64,000 bases of DNA from a virus (Duplodnaviria > Caudoviricetes), in the IMG/VR virus record IMGVR_UViG_3300024331_000007, positions 1 through 64,000 of that record, one strand, 5' to 3'. This document shows positions 9,272 through 36,694 of the stretch, in pieces (the stretch's first letter is position 1; every line of letters begins with the position of its first letter). The notes beneath the pieces were generated by a model that saw only the letters and a program-made list of their open reading frames with translations, was not told the origin of the DNA and searched no databases. The position numbers and the translations under genes were made by a program.

Positions 9272-9658
9272 TTATGATTCAAAGATGTCCAATAAAGCCT
9301 CACCTTTGGTTTTATAGTAGTATGTGAATGATGGATAGTAAGAATCGCCATATTCAGTACCAAATGTCAGCCAAACATGACCATCAACCACATCTACTAG
9401 TTTGTATCCCTCGAACGGTTCATCGGGTTGCTGAAAACTATACCTCAAATAATCACTTGCATCTTCGACTCTTACTCTTGCGAGTGGAGTACGAAAGAAA
9501 ATCAAACCCTCTACATCGTCCTTCATTCTAATATCGCTTAACATCGAACGATACCCATCGCTGTTATCTTCAACTGCTTCAAATACACAGTTATCCAACT
9601 TGAACGAGTTGCAATCGACACCGTAAAAATCAGCTTCCAGACCTAATTCGAACGTCAA
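9272..9658 (-). CDS. hypothetical protein
   Basis: ORF track. Confidence 0.6.
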   Translation of the reverse strand: MTFELGLEADFYGVDCNSFKLDNCVFEAVEDNSDGYRSMLSDIRMKDDVEGLIFFRTPLARVRVEDASDYLRYSFQQPDEPFEGYKLVDVVDGHVWLTFGTEYGDSYYPSFTYYYKTKGEALLDIFES

Positions 9659-10214
9659 AATTTTTCTTTCTCGCTTTTGATATTTTTCTTCTTGTACTTT
9701 CTATTACTACGTGGCCTAATAGAGATTTGGAAATTTTTTCTTTTGATTCGTTTGATACCGTTTTTCCTTTGTTGCCAGCACCTATTTTTCTCTTGTGATC
9801 TTCTGATAAAGGATTTGTGTTTTTGCCTTTCATACTTTTAGAAATATTTTTTCTATGAGTTTCCGATAGCAGTTTGCCTTGCAAAGATTTCGAAATTTTA
9901 TTTTTTGTTCCCTCAGTATGAATTAATCCCTTTTGTCCGTCACCACCATCTGTTTTGTTAAGTAAACATCCCGTTCCTAAGTCAACTCGTCCATACCAAT
10001 CAATAAGAAAAATTTCATCTCTAAATGCATCTTCTTCAGTAAGTCCTACTGAATGAAATTTAATAAAATTTTTGTTTTTAGGAACTGAAATTCCTTTTTG
10101 GTGTTTCTTGAAGCATCTATTACCAAAACCCTTTCCTATGTAGTATGGAGTTCCCTTTAGTCCGTGTTTAGAATTTTTGTTCCTTAAGTACAGGTATACA
10201 TAAAAGTTGTTCAT
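9630..10214 (-). CDS. GIY-YIG homing endonuclease with NUMOD3 repeats
   Basis: FYVYLY...PYYIGKG, LLNKTDGGDG, HTEGTKNKISKS repeats; late motif upstream. Confidence 0.9.
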   Translation of the reverse strand: MNNFYVYLYLRNKNSKHGLKGTPYYIGKGFGNRCFKKHQKGISVPKNKNFIKFHSVGLTEEDAFRDEIFLIDWYGRVDLGTGCLLNKTDGGDGQKGLIHTEGTKNKISKSLQGKLLSETHRKNISKSMKGKNTNPLSEDHKRKIGAGNKGKTVSNESKEKISKSLLGHVVIESTRRKISKARKKNFDVRIRSGS

Positions 10215-10521: not shown

Positions 10522-10612
10522 TGGCGGAAGGCTGAGGTGTCGATCCCCATGCTGTTTTGCAAGCACCACTAGTTTTCAAGACTAGGTTTAAGGCCGCTTA
10601 AATTAACCTTCC
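10522..10612 (-). tRNA. tRNA-Ser (TGA)
   Basis: Long variable arm, CT-TGA-AA, G73, CCA. Confidence 0.9.
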
Positions 10613-10690
10613 ATAAAGAGACTCACTTCCCTGAAGAAGTGAGGGCATCGGGATAAACTTGCTCTGATGGTTGTCCCGATGGGATGAATT

Positions 10691-10779
10691 TGGCGGATAG
10701 CTGAGATGTCGATTCCCATGCCGTTCAAGGCACCATCTGTTTTCGAAACAGAGTCAACAGCCGTGTTGATTAACTATCC
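10691..10779 (-). tRNA. tRNA-Ser (CGA)
   Basis: TT-CGA-AA, variable arm, GCCA. Confidence 0.9.
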
Positions 10780-11095: not shown

Positions 11096-11191
11096 TGGCG
11101 GTGAGTGTGAGATTCGAACTCACGAACCCTGTTTTTAGCAGGGTTACTACTTTTCCAGAGTAGCCGCATCATCCATCTCGCGCAACTCACC
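11096..11191 (-). tRNA. tRNA-Ser (GGA)
   Basis: CT-GGA-AA, variable arm, GCCA. Confidence 0.9.
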
Positions 11192-11199
11192 AAAACTTT

Positions 11200-11222
11200 T
11201 GGCGGAAAATAAATGAGTCGAA
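11200..11222 (-). pseudogene. tRNA 3' remnant (T-loop to CCA)
   Basis: Minus strand TTCGACT-CATTT-ATTTTCC-G-CCA with no 5' part. Confidence 0.6.
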
Positions 11223-11248
11223 ATTGAAGTTTCCGACTAAATACCTTC

Positions 11249-11878
11249 ATGCCGAATTTTACTACTCAACGATGCGCAGTATGCTTTTGCGAATTTAAAA
11301 GAACTACAAAAGATTCCGCATCTGCGCGTCTAAAAAATTGTGGGGAATCATATTGTTCCCGAAAATGTTTTGGTCTATCAATTCAAACCAAAGTTACTAT
11401 TTCTTGTACTAATTGCCAAAAACAAATTTACAAGATTGAGTCCCAACTGCGAAAAAGTGGCAACAATTTTTGTTCTCGCTCATGCGCCGCCACATACAAT
11501 AATACTCACAAAACTTACGGAACACGTCGATCAAAACTTGAAGTCTTTCTGGAATCTCAAATTCGAGAAGCCTATCCAAACTTGAAACTTCTGTGTAACG
11601 ACAAAACCGCTATTAATTCAGAACTCGATTTCTACTTTCCAGATTTGAATCTTGCTATCGAGTTAAATGGAATCCTTCATTTCGAACCCATCTACGGCCA
11701 TAACAAGTTGGATCAAATTCAATCAAATGACAACAAAAAAGCGTTTCTGTGCAACCAGAATCAAATAAATCTTGCAGTTCTTGATACATCTATGCATAAA
11801 AATTGTAGTCAGGCCGTTAGAACTAAGTTTTGGTCTATTGTTCGTTCTTTGCTTGACTCAAATATGGCGGAAGGCTGA
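11249..11878 (+). CDS. Cys-rich Vsr/DUF559-like PD-(D/E)XK endonuclease, copy 1
   Basis: CxxC/FCSRSC repeats, then SELDFYFP..LAIELNGILHF; stop lies inside tRNA-Ser(GCT). Confidence 0.75.
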   Translation: MPNFTTQRCAVCFCEFKRTTKDSASARLKNCGESYCSRKCFGLSIQTKVTISCTNCQKQIYKIESQLRKSGNNFCSRSCAATYNNTHKTYGTRRSKLEVFLESQIREAYPNLKLLCNDKTAINSELDFYFPDLNLAIELNGILHFEPIYGHNKLDQIQSNDNKKAFLCNQNQINLAVLDTSMHKNCSQAVRTKFWSIVRSLLDSNMAEG

Positions 11879-11956
11879 GAGCACGATTCCCAATGCCGCT
11901 AAGCGGCATCAATCTGTTTAGCAAACAGTTCCAGACACCCTTCTGGTTAACCTTCC
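11865..11956 (-). tRNA. tRNA-Ser (GCT)
   Basis: TT-GCT-AA, variable arm, GCCA. Confidence 0.9.
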
Positions 11957-12147: not shown

Positions 12148-12269
12148 GGAACATACCGCGACGGGAATCGCACCCGCATTTGTTACGCAACTACTGTGCA
12201 TCACTTTGTTATTTCTTGCCCCGGTTTTTTAGACCAGCGCCTCTACTTTTCGGCTACACAGTACGTTCC
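12148..12269 (-). ncRNA. tRNA-like RNA, AAA anticodon, 13-bp acceptor helix, long variable insert, no CCA
   Basis: GGAACGTACTGTG/CGCGGTATGTTCC; D, anticodon and T arms recognisable. Confidence 0.65.
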
Positions 12270-12598: not shown

Positions 12599-12674
12599 TG
12601 GAGGCGCAAGGGGGAATCGAACCCATCGATGGACAATTTTGCAGACTGCCGCCTTACCACTTGGCTATTGCGCC
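12599..12674 (-). tRNA. tRNA-Cys (GCA)
   Basis: CT-GCA-AA, U73, CCA. Confidence 0.9.
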
Positions 12675-12684
12675 TTGTTAAAAT

Positions 12685-12759
12685 TGGAGGTCGGGGTGAG
12701 AATCGAACTCACGAATAAAGGCTTTGCAGGCCCTTGCATTACCACTTTGCTACCCAACC
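12685..12759 (-). tRNA. tRNA-Cys (GCA)
   Basis: CT-GCA-AA, U73, CCA. Confidence 0.9.
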
Positions 12760-14479: not shown

Positions 14480-14554
14480 TGGTCGGGGAGGGGAATGTCG
14501 AAATCCCGGCCCTTCCGCCCCAAACGGAATGCTCTGCCTCTGAGCTACTCCCCG
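14480..14554 (-). tRNA. tRNA-Pro (TGG)
   Basis: CGGGGAG/CTCCCCG, TT-TGG-GG. Confidence 0.9.
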
Positions 14555-15147
14555 TTATTCATTTGTTTTTGAATCACCGAGTTGACTATTGACCAATATT
14601 TATTTTTTGCAGATTGGTTCAAATATTTACAAGTCGATGAATCAATTATAGCAAGATTTATTTGTTTTTGACAGCAAAGAAAATATTTTTTACTATCGTT
14701 GCTTTGAATCTGTTCTAGTTTTTTGGTTCCGTATATTGGTTCAAAATGCAAAATGCCATTTAGCTCGATTGCTAATTTTAGCTCTGGAAAATAGAAATCA
14801 AGCTCTGAATTTATCGTTTCCTTGTCATTACACAGAAGTCGTAAATTTGGATAATGACTTCGAACTTCTCCCTCAAGAAAGATTTCAAGTTTTGAACGTC
14901 TTGATCCATGTTTCTTGCTTCTATTGTTATATGTTGCCGCGCACGAAGACGAACAAAATTTATATGTTCGTTTGTAAAAATTTAGAGCTTCTGAACATTG
15001 ACTACACTTTTTTGGTGATAATGCATACGTTTCGCGTATTTTCTTGGCATTTTTAGCAGATACTTTGCTACCTATTTTTCCAGCATTACAAATACTTATT
15101 TGCTGTCTGCCACTCTTGTAATATTCTGTTTCCTTCATGTTGATCAT
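14545..15147 (-). CDS. Cys-rich Vsr/DUF559-like endonuclease, copy 2
   Basis: Same SELDFYFPELKLAIELNGILHF core; stop inside tRNA-Pro 5' end. Confidence 0.75.
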   Translation of the reverse strand: MINMKETEYYKSGRQQISICNAGKIGSKVSAKNAKKIRETYALSPKKCSQCSEALNFYKRTYKFCSSSCAATYNNRSKKHGSRRSKLEIFLEGEVRSHYPNLRLLCNDKETINSELDFYFPELKLAIELNGILHFEPIYGTKKLEQIQSNDSKKYFLCCQKQINLAIIDSSTCKYLNQSAKNKYWSIVNSVIQKQMNNGE

Positions 15148-15199
15148 GTTACTATTTATGATCAGCGTAAAGAAACTCGAATTTATGATTTCAAATCTT

Positions 15200-34569: not shown

Positions 34570-34644
34570 TGGTAGCGCGTAAGGGAGTCGAACCCTTCTT
34601 CGCAGATTGAAAGTCTACTGTCCTAACCGATAGACGAACACGCC
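34570..34644 (-). tRNA. tRNA-Glu (TTC)
   Basis: CT-TTC-AA, CCA. Confidence 0.9.
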
Positions 34645-34653
34645 ATATAAACT

Positions 34654-34737
34654 TGGTAACGTAGAAGGGGATCGAACCCTCTTGTCCGAAGACGCCAGAT
34701 TGAAAGTCTGGTGACCTGCCAATTAGTCATCTACGTC
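34654..34737 (-). tRNA. tRNA-Glu (TTC) with long variable arm
   Basis: Extra arm GTC-TTCG-GAC. Confidence 0.85.
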
Positions 34738-35217: not shown

Positions 35218-35302
35218 TGGCAGGGGTGACAGGGATCGAACCTGCTATGAGTTTCCTCGCCAGTTTTGGAGACTGGTGTCGTACCATTACGACTACACCC
35301 CT
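35218..35302 (-). tRNA. tRNA-Trp (CCA) with long variable arm
   Basis: CT-CCA-AA, G73; extra arm GAG-GAAA-CTC. Confidence 0.85.
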
Positions 35303-35312
35303 ATAAAATCTA

Positions 35313-35402
35313 TGGCGGGAGATGAAGGACTTGAACCTTCGGTGTGAGATTTATCTCATTCGGGTTTGGAGTCCGATGCTGTCGCCGCTGAGCCAATCTC
35401 CC
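35313..35402 (-). tRNA. tRNA-Trp (CCA) with long variable arm, Tyr-like body
   Basis: CT-CCA-AA; TGAGAT-AA-ATCTCA arm. Confidence 0.8.
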
Positions 35403-35956: not shown

Positions 35957-35975
35957 TGGCGGTCCCGACGAGATT
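35957..35975 (-). pseudogene. tRNA 3' remnant (from T-loop to CCA), Asp-like
   Basis: AAT-CTCGT-CGGGACC-G-CCA. Confidence 0.65.
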
Positions 35976-36001
35976 TATTTGGTATTTTGATAAATATTGA
36001 T

Positions 36002-36646
36002 ATGCCCAATACCGCCAATCTCGTTTGTGATTATTGCAATTCAACTTTTGTTAGAACATCTAAAGATATCGCATCATCCCGAATCGCTAATTCTAAATCA
36101 AAATTCTGTTCTCGAACATGTATGGGATTATCCAATATAACAACGAAAACGGTTACGTGTTTACAATGTAACAAACTCTTTCAAAAACAAGCACATCGAA
36201 TTAAAAAATCACCTAATCATTTTTGTGATCGTTCATGCTCAGCCAAATATCACAATGTTCATAAAACTATTGGAACTCGGCGTTCAAAACTTGAAATTTT
36301 TCTGGAATCTAAACTTCGTAAGTCATATCCAGAATTGAAACTCCTGTGCAATGATAAATCTGCCATTAATTCAGAACTCGATTTCTACTTCCCAGAGTTA
36401 CAACTTGCAATAGAATTAAACGGAATACTCCATTTTGAACCCATTTATGGTAATAGCAAACTGACTCAAATTCAATCGAATGATACTAAGAAATCCTTTT
36501 TATGTCATCAGCAGCATATCAATCTTGCTGTTATCGACTGCTCTACATATTCTCATCTAACTGAAAAAGTTAAAAACAAATATTGGAACATTGTTAATAA
36601 CCTTTTAGCAAATATGGCGGGGAATATGGGTAACGATCCCACCTGA
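36002..36646 (+). CDS. Cys-rich Vsr/DUF559-like endonuclease, copy 3
   Basis: Same core as 11249 and 14545 ORFs; C-terminus overlaps tRNA-Asp 3' end antisense. Confidence 0.75.
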   Translation: MPNTANLVCDYCNSTFVRTSKDIASSRIANSKSKFCSRTCMGLSNITTKTVTCLQCNKLFQKQAHRIKKSPNHFCDRSCSAKYHNVHKTIGTRRSKLEIFLESKLRKSYPELKLLCNDKSAINSELDFYFPELQLAIELNGILHFEPIYGNSKLTQIQSNDTKKSFLCHQQHINLAVIDCSTYSHLTEKVKNKYWNIVNNLLANMAGNMGNDPT

Positions 36647-36694
36647 TATTCCTGATCGACAGTCAGGCAACCACTCCATGCAGTTCCATTCCCC
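36615..36694 (-). tRNA. tRNA-Asp (GTC), divergent
   Basis: CT-GTC-GA, G73, ATCGTTA T-loop. Confidence 0.8.

What the first reader, a model, noticed from the sequence alone, without database searches (positions are those of the whole stretch)
11096..11956. Endonuclease cassette at tRNA-Ser: orphan 3' tRNA remnant broken at the T-loop plus an intact tRNA overlapping the ORF end
Seen (minus-strand order): intact tRNA-Ser(GCT), whose 3' end is also the antisense C-terminus of the endonuclease (NMAEG*); then the ORF with its own TAAATA late motif; then a lone TTCGACT-CATTT-ATTTTCC-GCCA remnant (11200-11222). The remnant acceptor strand can still pair with the intact tRNA 5' strand GGAAGGT. Inference: insertion into a tRNA T-loop with the element supplying a new 3' end, integrase-style but with no integrase nearby. 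Related to T4 SegB homing in a tRNA region, but the tRNA-repairing architecture looks distinct.
Basis: partly seen in the sequence, partly recalled or inferred. Interest (0 to 1): 0.78.

Follow-up and report, generated by a model that had tools for sequence, protein, structure and literature searches.

The report
tRNA-gene-targeting homing endonuclease cassette
A selfish nuclease gene sits right after a phage tRNA gene; its relatives insert into tRNA genes while copying the tRNA's last 20 bases, so the tRNA stays whole and a short leftover piece marks the insertion.

Summary
The ORF (11249-11878, +) is a free-standing homing endonuclease with two FCS-type zinc fingers and a Vsr/I-Bth0305I-like nuclease domain. 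It has two paralogs in the window.

The tRNA-Ser(GCU) is real but non-canonical (8/4 type). ARAGORN and the Rfam tRNA model both miss it.

I sampled 141 distinct homologs. Of the 135 with enough flank, 79 end within -38 to +84 nt of the 3' end of a convergent tRNA gene. Nine carry an exact 20-nt repeat of that tRNA's T54-N73 beyond the ORF's promoter.

One empty/filled pair (L180/L118) shows a 742-nt cassette plus exactly this 20-bp duplication.

It does not hold for this copy:
- The resident tRNA is not a chimera.
- The remnant's T-stem cannot pair with the resident tRNA.
- The remnant's first 13 nt are cassette sequence, shared with copies at tRNA-Asn sites, and include one arm of a covarying hairpin.
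- Only the last 8 nt repeat the resident tRNA's end.

Paralog P2 keeps 17 nt identical to a canonical phage tRNA-Asp 3' end beside a different 8/4 tRNA-Asp. The scan had already noted P2 (e1-5402020).

Cleavage specificity is inferred, not shown.

The parts
11249..11878 (+). Free-standing homing endonuclease gene P1 (209 aa): two FCS/MYM-like zinc fingers plus a C-terminal Vsr-like nuclease domain
   Evidence: ORF. PHROG homing/HNH endonuclease families at 1.6e-11 and 2.5e-9. At least 1435 homologs. AlphaFold2 pLDDT 82. Foldseek matches to Vsr 1cw0 (prob 0.99) and I-Bth0305I 3r3p (prob 0.96-0.98). Profile against 3r3p E 0.21 over the whole domain.
11865..11956 (-). Intact non-canonical (8/4) tRNA-Ser(GCU): 8-bp acceptor, long D-stem, long variable arm, 4-bp T-stem, T-loop AUCGUGC, G73, encoded CCA. 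The only Ser-AGY tRNA found in the genome
   Evidence: Missed by ARAGORN and the Rfam tRNA model.
11865..11878 (.). 14-nt overlap: the last codons and stop of P1 are antisense to the tRNA's 3' end
   Evidence: P2 does the same, and about 59% of sampled homologs abut a convergent tRNA.
11238..11243 (+). TAAATA box exactly 5 nt before the ATG (T4-late-promoter-like; function inferred)
   Evidence: The TAAATA-N5-ATG spacing is kept in 19 of the scanned copies.
11216..11238 (.). Conserved hairpin of the cassette (AGTCGGAA / loop / TTTCGACT).
   Evidence: Fold z = -4.0. Homologous hairpins covary, e.g. GTAGAAAT/ATTTCTAC in L017.
11200..11222 (-). The 23-nt remnant, in register with a tRNA 3' end (7+5+7+1+CCA). 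The first 13 nt are cassette-borne; the last 8 nt (11200-11207) repeat the resident tRNA's end
   Evidence: Best library match 18/23 against 17/23 for unrelated tRNAs.
11865..11872 (-). TTCCGCCA, left copy of the 8-nt direct repeat that flanks the cassette
   Evidence: Read directly.
11192..11199 (-). AAAGTTTT trailer typical of tRNA 3' flanks in this array. CCGCCAAAAGTTTT occurs only twice in the 360-kb genome, at the P1 and P2 stubs
11096..11191 (-). Canonical tRNA-Ser(GGA), the next gene of the array
36002..36646 (+). Paralog P2 (60% identical). Its end is antisense to the 8/4 tRNA-Asp(GUC) at 36615-36694 (-)
35957..35973 (-). P2 stub: 17 nt identical to the 3' end of a canonical phage tRNA-Asp, followed by AAAGTTTT and tRNA-Gln
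   Evidence: The only exact IMG/VR hit of the extended pattern is a tRNA-Asp(GTC), itself followed by tRNA-Gln.
14545..15147 (-). Paralog P3 (64% identical over residues 67-208), in sense orientation. Its stop lies inside the 5' end of tRNA-Pro(UGG). Orthologous copy in L005
10523..10779 (-). Two sister 8/4 tRNAs, Ser(CGA) 10691-10779 and Ser(UGA) 10523-10612, separated by a roughly 78-nt double hairpin. Relatives L011 and L012 carry a family HEG at this place

Best explanation
P1 is a free-standing homing endonuclease cassette of a large family that specialises on tRNA genes in phage tRNA arrays. The family has FCS zinc fingers and a Vsr/EDxHD-like nuclease.

Shown:
- Family members sit antisense to the array, ending at or inside the 3' end of a tRNA gene.
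- In the regular subfamily the insertion carries an exact duplication of tRNA positions 54-73. The tRNA stays complete on one side, and a 20-nt 3' stub followed by the native trailer lies beyond the ORF's promoter on the other side.

Inferred:
- The enzyme cuts the uninterrupted tRNA gene at the edges of that segment, that is, at the start of the T-loop and at the 3' end.
- The break is repaired from a cassette-bearing genome.
- After insertion neither copy holds the whole target, so the resident tRNA is immune.

The window's copy belongs to a derived subfamily:
- The ORF runs into the tRNA end.
- A TAAATA box 5 nt before the ATG and a covarying hairpin control expression (inferred).
- The old stub has been remodelled. 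Its T-loop and T-stem part is now cassette sequence, including the hairpin arm, and travels with the cassette. Only the last 8 nt repeat the resident tRNA's end.
- The resident 8/4 tRNA-Ser(GCU) is a whole, self-consistent gene, not a repaired chimera.
For: - Nuclease identity.
- Paralogs at tRNA borders in the window.
- Family habit: 52 of 80 metagenome copies and 27 of 55 IMG/VR copies have a convergent tRNA 3' end within -38 to +84 nt of the stop.
- Exact T54-N73 repeats in 9 loci covering six tRNA specificities, and near-exact repeats in at least 7 more. The highest control score was 14.5.
- Empty/filled pair L180/L118: one copy of the 20-mer against two copies 762 nt apart; tRNA 5' part 50/52 identical; downstream flank 100/120 identical; no HEG homolog in L180.
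- Presence/absence at the window's own array: L012 carries a cassette where the window has 1 nt. L009 and L012 have small ORFs where the window has P1.
- Cassette-borne start of the remnant.
- Hairpin covariation and fixed TAAATA-N5-ATG spacing.
- Resident tRNA intact, and a member of a covarying 8/4 class.
- It is the sole Ser-AGY tRNA in the genome.
Against: - No cleavage data exist. The cut sites are inferred only from the repeat boundaries.
- In P1 the repeat is only 8 nt, which could be microhomology or chance tRNA-end similarity.
- The 14-mer CCGCCAAAAGTTTT shared by the P1 and P2 flanks may instead be kept because it pairs with the start-codon region.
- The remnant's acceptor part is 10/11 identical to the canonical tRNA-Ser(GCU) of relative L012. 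A local origin by allele replacement is therefore not excluded.
- Only one empty/filled pair was found. Two other searches for empty alleles found none.
- The sequence link to I-Bth0305I is weak (E 0.21).
Confidence: 0.6

Rival explanations
1. Allele replacement at this very site, as in P2. A genome carrying a canonical tRNA-Ser(GCU) was cut in the T-loop. It was repaired from a donor carrying the 8/4 tRNA-Ser(GCU) plus the endonuclease gene. The whole 23-mer is the recipient's own leftover 3' end.
For: - The P2 stub is 17/17 identical to a canonical tRNA-Asp 3' end, while the resident tRNA-Asp is a different 8/4 gene.
- Relatives L009 and L012 have canonical tRNA-Ser(GCU) at the orthologous position.
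- The remnant's ATTTTCCGCCA matches L012's ATCTTCCGCCA at 10 of 11 positions.
- The remnant is in exact tRNA register and is followed by the array's usual trailer.
Against: - The first 13 nt are shared with cassettes at tRNA-Asn sites.
- Over all 23 nt the L012 match is 18/23, against 17/23 for unrelated tRNAs.
- No exact hit in IMG/VR.
- In relatives a small ORF lies between tRNA-Ser(GCU) and tRNA-Ser(GGA). It is absent here, so the stub is not simply in place.
Confidence: 0.22
2. The cassette entered the T-loop of this tRNA-Ser gene and supplied only a new T-loop, T-stem and acceptor 3' strand. The resident tRNA would then be old 5' part plus new 3' part.
For: - The family-wide T54-N73 duplication.
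- The remnant's acceptor strand can pair with GGAAGGT using two G-U pairs.
Against: - The remnant's T-stem CATTT cannot pair with the resident TGGGA.
- The resident's 5' and 3' halves occur together in the ORF-less sister tRNA at 10523-10612.
- Resident 3' part and remnant share only 12 of 23 positions.
Confidence: 0.06
3. The remnant is not tRNA-derived. It is the upstream arm of a two-tier regulatory hairpin that hides the endonuclease start codon in read-through transcripts, as known for several T4 genes (from memory). Its tRNA-like look would be chance.
For: - Strong folds on both strands.
- The inner hairpin covaries across copies.
- In L011 and L012 the segment after the hairpin is complementary to the start-codon region.
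- The 14-mer is conserved between P1 and P2 although the proteins are only 60% identical.
Against: - The exact 7+5+7+1+CCA register.
- The usual tRNA trailer follows.
- The P2 stub is identical to a real tRNA-Asp end.
- The family-wide stubs.
- The two roles do not exclude each other.
Confidence: 0.1
4. The cassette is moved by a separate integrase or transposase acting on tRNA genes, and the nuclease is a passenger.
For: Direct repeats of a tRNA 3' end flanking an insert are the hallmark of integrase-mediated integration (from memory).
Against: - No integrase, recombinase or transposase domain in ORFs of 110 aa or more between 4 and 20 kb.
- Cassettes are 720-797 nt with a single ORF.
- The repeat is specific to each tRNA type. 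An attP-based mechanism would need a matching attP for every tRNA.
Confidence: 0.02

Closest known systems
I-Bth0305I and the EDxHD (Vsr-like) homing endonucleases (PMC3239194; PMC2677866)
   Same: - Vsr-like nuclease fold: Foldseek prob 0.96-0.98, target-normalised TM 0.60-0.70.
- Shared core motifs LAIE(V/L)NG and DKRK in the profile alignment.
- Occur in phages, as mobile and also free-standing genes.
   Different: - Sequence link is weak (E 0.21).
- The N-terminal part here is one or two FCS/MYM-type zinc fingers.
- The target is tRNA genes, not recA or nrdA-type protein genes.
- No intron or split intein. Function of the target gene is kept by duplicating its 3' end.
- I-Bth0305I makes 2-nt 5' overhangs; the 20-bp duplication here suggests a different cut geometry (inferred).
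SegB of phages T4/T6 (GIY-YIG) in the tRNA gene cluster (PMC2330249 as cited in PMC8421152; PMC13096335)
   Same: - Free-standing homing endonuclease inside a phage tRNA array.
- Cuts within tRNA genes. Its motif RAWTSGAAC is the reverse complement of the T-loop consensus GTTCSAWTY (my reading of PMC13096335).
- Drives inheritance and amplification of neighbouring tRNA genes.
   Different: - Different nuclease fold: no GIY-YIG domain here.
- SegB is not reported to sit against a tRNA 3' end with a T54-N73 duplication.
Tyrosine-integrase elements that integrate into tRNA genes (from memory: crossover in the T-loop, anticodon loop or 3' end, element restores the tRNA 3' part)
   Same: - The insert is flanked by direct repeats of the tRNA 3' part.
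- The tRNA gene remains intact.
- The breakpoint lies at the T-loop.
   Different: - No integrase.
- The element is about 750 bp with a single nuclease gene.
- The repeat is exactly 20 bp and specific to each of at least six tRNA specificities.
- The host is a lytic-type jumbo phage array, not a bacterial chromosome.
Mitochondrial free-standing endonuclease genes that bring a replacement 3' end of the invaded gene and leave the old end downstream (from memory, e.g. Allomyces atp6)
   Same: The same logic: the invaded gene stays functional because its 3' end is duplicated or replaced, and a displaced remnant follows the endonuclease gene.
   Different: Those targets are protein genes with in-frame fusion and LAGLIDADG or GIY-YIG enzymes. 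Here the target is a tRNA gene and the enzyme is a Vsr-like nuclease.
(8/4) tRNA-Ser / allo-tRNA class (PMC5389517)
   Same: - The resident tRNA has an 8-bp acceptor, 4-bp T-stem, long D-stem, long variable arm and G73.
- The paper reports 8/4 tRNA-Ser in phage tRNA clusters.
   Different: A link between 8/4 tRNAs and endonuclease cassettes did not turn up in my term searches of that paper. An 8/4-type tRNA-Asp without a long variable arm (36615-36694) is not among the classes those passages describe.

Membership tests
Free-standing homing endonuclease gene | Encodes a nuclease domain of a family known to include homing endonucleases | tested here: met
   Vsr/I-Bth0305I-like fold; PHROG homing-endonuclease families.
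Free-standing homing endonuclease gene | Presence/absence polymorphism at the same site in otherwise collinear relatives | tested here: met
   L118 against L180. L012 against the window. P1 absent from L009 and L012.
Free-standing homing endonuclease gene | Site-specific cleavage of the gene-less allele and biased inheritance | not testable with these tools
   Needs enzyme assays and mixed infections.
EDxHD family (I-Bth0305I type) | Vsr-like catalytic fold | tested here: met
   1cw0_A prob 0.99; 3r3p prob 0.96-0.98, TM 0.60-0.70 normalised by target. E-values are only 0.0035-0.11.
EDxHD family (I-Bth0305I type) | Composite catalytic motif E-D-x-H-D | tested here: inconclusive
   Invariant residues E125, D127, E138, N140, H144 and D161. 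The profile aligns with 3r3p over the whole domain at E 0.21. A residue-by-residue match of the motif was not established.
EDxHD family (I-Bth0305I type) | Homodimer on a pseudopalindromic target | not tested
   No complex was predicted. The T-arm is a natural 5+7+5 pseudopalindrome, which is a lead only.
SegB-like GIY-YIG endonuclease | GIY-YIG catalytic domain | tested here: not met
   No GIY-YIG hit for P1. The neighbouring ORF 9630-10214 does have NUMOD3 repeats and a GIY-YIG-like N-terminal sequence by eye.
Integrase-mediated tRNA-gene integration | Integrase or recombinase gene in or next to the element | tested here: not met
   No such Pfam domain in ORFs of 110 aa or more between 4 and 20 kb. 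Cassettes have a single ORF.
Integrase-mediated tRNA-gene integration | Direct repeats of the tRNA 3' part at both ends | tested here: met
   Exact 20 nt in 9 family loci. Only 8 nt at P1 and 6 nt at P2 with respect to the resident tRNA.
DNA transposon | Target-site duplication of fixed length | tested here: met
   20 bp (T54-N73) in the regular subfamily, confirmed by the empty/filled pair.
DNA transposon | Transposase and terminal inverted repeats | tested here: not met
   No transposase domain. The cassette ends shown are not inverted repeats of each other.
Group I intron in a tRNA gene | Intron ribozyme interrupting the tRNA | tested here: not met
   No intron family in Rfam at E up to 10. 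The tRNA is continuous.
(8/4) tRNA-Ser | 8-bp acceptor plus 4-bp T-stem, long variable arm, G73 | tested here: met
   Consensus fold with 17 of 30 pairs compensatory. Independent model hit at 52.9 bits.
(8/4) tRNA-Ser | Expression and serylation | not testable with these tools
   Needs tRNA sequencing and charging assays.

The most novel reading that the evidence does not exclude
The family is a nuclease-only mobile element that recognises the near-universal T-arm of tRNA genes. It would make two nicks 20 bp apart, at 53/54 and 73/74, so both ends of the break keep T54-N73. It could thereby insert into any tRNA gene with a fixed 20-bp duplication that preserves the tRNA and splits its own target. 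It would be a major driver of allele swapping, duplication and growth of jumbo-phage tRNA arrays. Variant tRNAs (8/4 type, A54 T-loops) would be escape alleles.
Probability: 0.35. Interest if true: 0.85.

Novelty: new variant of a known kind. Interest (0 to 1): 0.72.

Why it matters
Homing endonucleases usually invade essential genes by hiding in introns or inteins. Here a large family, with at least 1435 homologs, appears to use a different solution for tRNA genes. It duplicates the last 20 nt, so the gene stays whole and the target is split.

If confirmed, this has four consequences:
- It explains why phage tRNA arrays are littered with endonuclease genes, orphan tRNA ends and divergent same-anticodon tRNA pairs.
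- It gives a testable mechanism for tRNA allele replacement between co-infecting phages.
- It offers a natural nuclease scaffold aimed at a sequence shared by nearly all tRNA genes.
- It links non-canonical 8/4 tRNAs to selfish-element pressure.

Tried and rejected
- Exact-match IMG/VR scan for the P1 remnant with a T-loop prefix: no hit.
- Two searches for the empty allele of the L066 tRNA-Met: no hit. The third search, for L118, succeeded.
- blastn of the region against GenBank phages gave only a 104-nt tRNA-like match, so no annotated close relative was available.
- Pfam gives no significant domain for P1. phmmer against PDB found only zinc-finger noise.
- Identifying the remnant's parent tRNA by similarity failed: 18/23 for the syntenic tRNA-Ser(GCU) against 17/23 for unrelated tRNAs.
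- Split or permuted tRNA reading (remnant pairs with the resident 5' strand): rejected because the T-stem cannot pair.
- Group I intron: no Rfam hit.
- The idea that a variant T-loop is required next to the endonuclease: weakened. Close homologs (L017-L020) and all regular-subfamily copies abut tRNAs with canonical TTCRA T-loops. The C-terminal extension of P0001 back-translates to a canonical T-arm (inference).
- DNA for the two closest homologs (P0001, P0002) could not be fetched.

Full report
**Setting.** The window is the first 64 kb of a 359,890-bp IMG/VR virus record. ARAGORN finds 44 tRNA genes in the window and 52 in the genome. No annotated close relative exists among GenBank phages.

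**Observation.**
- The ORF at 11249-11878 (+) ends NMAEG*. Its last 14 nt are antisense to the 3' end of a 92-nt tRNA-like gene (11865-11956, minus strand, anticodon GCT).
- TAAATA lies 5 nt before the ATG.
- The 23-mer at 11200-11222 reads as T-loop, T-stem strand, acceptor strand, G and CCA. It is unique in the window. AAAGTTTT and tRNA-Ser(GGA) follow it.

**The tRNA.** ARAGORN and the Rfam tRNA model both miss it.
- It shares its acceptor stem with a second odd tRNA at 10523-10612, which Rfam scores as tRNA-Sec-like.
- A third lies at 10691-10779. Relatives L009, L011 and L012 carry further members.
- Seven such sequences give a consensus with an 8-bp acceptor, 6-bp D-stem, long variable arm and 4-bp T-stem. 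Seventeen of 30 pairs show compensatory changes.
- A covariance model built without the GCU copy finds it full length at 52.9 bits, E 1.7e-11.
- This is the (8/4) tRNA-Ser class already described in phage clusters (PMC5389517).
- It is the only Ser-AGY tRNA found in the genome, so it is presumably the working gene.

**The protein.** Pfam gives nothing significant. PHROGs places it with homing endonucleases.
- At least 1435 homologs exist, and JGI names some of them very-short-patch-repair endonuclease.
- The alignment shows one or two Cys4 FCS/MYM-like fingers. The invariant core contains ELDFYFP and IELNG..H..EP.
- The AlphaFold2 model has pLDDT 82.
- It matches Vsr (prob 0.99), PvuRts1I and the I-Bth0305I catalytic domain (prob 0.96-0.98, target-normalised TM 0.60-0.70). 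E-values are weak.
- A family profile aligns with I-Bth0305I over the whole domain at E 0.21.
- I read it as a Vsr-like, probably EDxHD-related, homing endonuclease.

**Paralogs.** The genome holds two more full copies, both at tRNA borders.
- P2 (36002-36646, +) ends antisense in tRNA-Asp.
- P3 (14545-15147, -) ends inside the 5' end of tRNA-Pro.

**Family survey.** I sampled 86 distinct copies from metagenome contigs and earlier loci, and 55 more from IMG/VR.
- 52 of 80 and 27 of 55 with enough flank have a convergent tRNA whose 3' end lies -38 to +84 nt from the stop.
- I compared each such tRNA's last 30 nt with the 200 nt beyond the ORF's start. Nine loci carry a perfect 20-nt copy: L026 Pro; L039 Phe; L066, L148 and L118 Met; L071 Asn; L132 Ile(tat); L140 and L149 CTA-suppressor.
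- At least seven more carry near-perfect copies. The highest control score, from comparisons with other loci, was 14.5.
- In every perfect case the repeat runs exactly from T54 to N73.
- The resident copy is followed by a purine and a covarying hairpin with a conserved loop.
- The stub is followed by C and a sequence unrelated to the cassette, read as the native trailer.
- The cassette measures 720-797 nt.

**Empty against filled.** A pattern specific for an uninterrupted allele (5' T-stem, 20-mer, C) found L180.
- L180 has one copy of the 20-mer. L118 has two copies, 762 nt apart.
- The tRNA 5' part is 50/52 identical and the downstream flank 100/120 identical.
- L180 has no endonuclease homolog.
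- The insertion therefore equals the cassette plus an exact 20-bp duplication of the tRNA's 3' end.

**This copy differs.**
- Cassettes of the P1 subfamily share TAAATA-N5-ATG (19 copies) and a hairpin just upstream that covaries.
- The remnant's TTCGACT is the 3' arm of that hairpin.
- TTCGACTCATTTA recurs in L019, with few changes in L013 and L017. All three are at tRNA-Asn sites.
- In L012 a cassette carrying such an end is inserted 1 nt before tRNA-Ser(UGA), where the window has no insert. That part therefore travels with the cassette.
- Only TTCCGCCA repeats the resident tRNA's end (11865-11872 and 11200-11207).
- The remnant's T-stem strand cannot pair with the resident T-stem.
- The resident's two halves occur together in the ORF-less sister tRNA.
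- The remnant's parent cannot be named by similarity.
- Syntenic relatives L009 and L012 have a canonical tRNA-Ser(GCU), small ORFs and no remnant at this place.

**P2 as a cleaner case.** Its stub's 17 nt are identical to the 3' end of a canonical phage tRNA-Asp. That tRNA is the only exact IMG/VR hit and is also followed by tRNA-Gln. The resident tRNA-Asp is a different 8/4-type gene (and direct reading). This fits whole-tRNA replacement on the stop side of the cassette, with the recipient's 3' end kept from the T-loop onward.

**Mechanism.**
- Shown: the placement, the repeat boundaries and the presence/absence polymorphism.
- Inferred: cuts at the edges of T54-N73, repair from a cassette-bearing genome, and immunity because neither copy keeps the whole target.
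- A staggered cut with both ends retaining the 20 nt would explain exact, tRNA-specific repeats at many tRNA types.
- An alternative is two tandem tRNA copies with the second truncated at the cut site. The following observations would fit it:
  - Same-anticodon tRNAs lie on both sides in L017, L062, L081 and L086.
  - A second tRNA-Asn copy in L018 scores only at the Rfam threshold.
  - L016 has a 5' half tRNA.
- SegB of T6 offers a precedent for T-loop targeting. Its cleavage motif is the reverse complement of the T-loop consensus (PMC13096335).
- I-Bth0305I is a homodimer on a pseudopalindrome (PMC3239194).

**Literature.** Searches for this architecture found nothing. The library is incomplete, so prior description cannot be excluded.

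Noticed in passing
window 10523-10612, 10691-10779, 11865-11956, 36615-36694 (all minus strand): Four tRNAs with 8-bp acceptor, long D-stem, 4-bp T-stem and an A54 T-loop (AUCG...): three Ser and one Asp. Two abut endonuclease genes. The other two lie where relatives L011 and L012 carry one. They may be escape alleles.
   Followed up: partly
window 10613-10690 (minus strand); L011 and L012 next to the endonuclease stop: A conserved double-hairpin element of roughly 78 nt, ending in a terminator-like stem and T-run. In the window it lies between two 8/4 tRNAs. In L011 and L012 it lies immediately beyond the endonuclease stop.
   Followed up: partly
L026, L039, L066, L071, L081, L118, L132, L140, L148, L149: first ~40 nt after the resident tRNA: The left end of the regular cassettes is a hairpin whose stem covaries. 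Its loop keeps AAGTTAATCCACYTGCACGTRGTG. It could be a tRNA 3'-processing or terminator signal, or a protein-binding site.
   Followed up: no
window 11238-11251, 35991-36004, 15145-15158; 19 copies in all: TAAATA is always exactly 5 nt from the ATG. If it is a T4-type late promoter, transcripts would start at or next to the A of the ATG (leaderless).
   Followed up: partly
L016:917-975 and 149-241: A 5' half of tRNA-Ser(GGA), broken in the anticodon loop, abuts the endonuclease stop. A different, intact tRNA-Ser(GGA) lies on the promoter side. This is a mirror image of the stub arrangement.
   Followed up: no
L017, L062, L081, L086; window pairs at 12599-12759, 24130-24296, 34570-34737, 35218-35402: Same-anticodon tRNAs flank the endonuclease gene in four loci. 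The window has several adjacent, divergent same-anticodon pairs with no endonuclease between them. These may be scars of earlier cassette events.
   Followed up: no
window 9630-10214 (minus strand); L009:4452-5153: Another free-standing endonuclease with NUMOD3 repeats and a GIY-YIG-like N-terminal sequence (by eye) lies near the 8/4 tRNAs. L009 has a GIY-YIG-like ORF whose end overlaps the 5' end of tRNA-Ser(UGA).
   Followed up: partly
window 24352-24428, 24878-24953, 25202-25279: ARAGORN calls two CTA-anticodon tRNAs and one TTA-anticodon tRNA (amber and ochre suppressor types). Two regular cassettes elsewhere (L140, L149) sit at CTA-suppressor tRNAs.
   Followed up: no
window 12153-12263 (minus strand): A 111-nt match to the Rfam tRNA model (37.6 bits) that ARAGORN does not call. 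Its 3' end lacks CCA and is followed by AAAGTTTT.
   Followed up: no
L013:2378-2450, L017:708-782 and 1813-1888: Otherwise canonical 7/5 tRNAs (Asn, Lys) with A54 T-arms (GGGGGATCGTAGCCC, or GGGGGATCATAGCCC in the L017 tRNA-Lys). The two tRNA-Asn genes lie on the promoter side of endonuclease cassettes; the tRNA-Lys lies beyond the stop.
   Followed up: no
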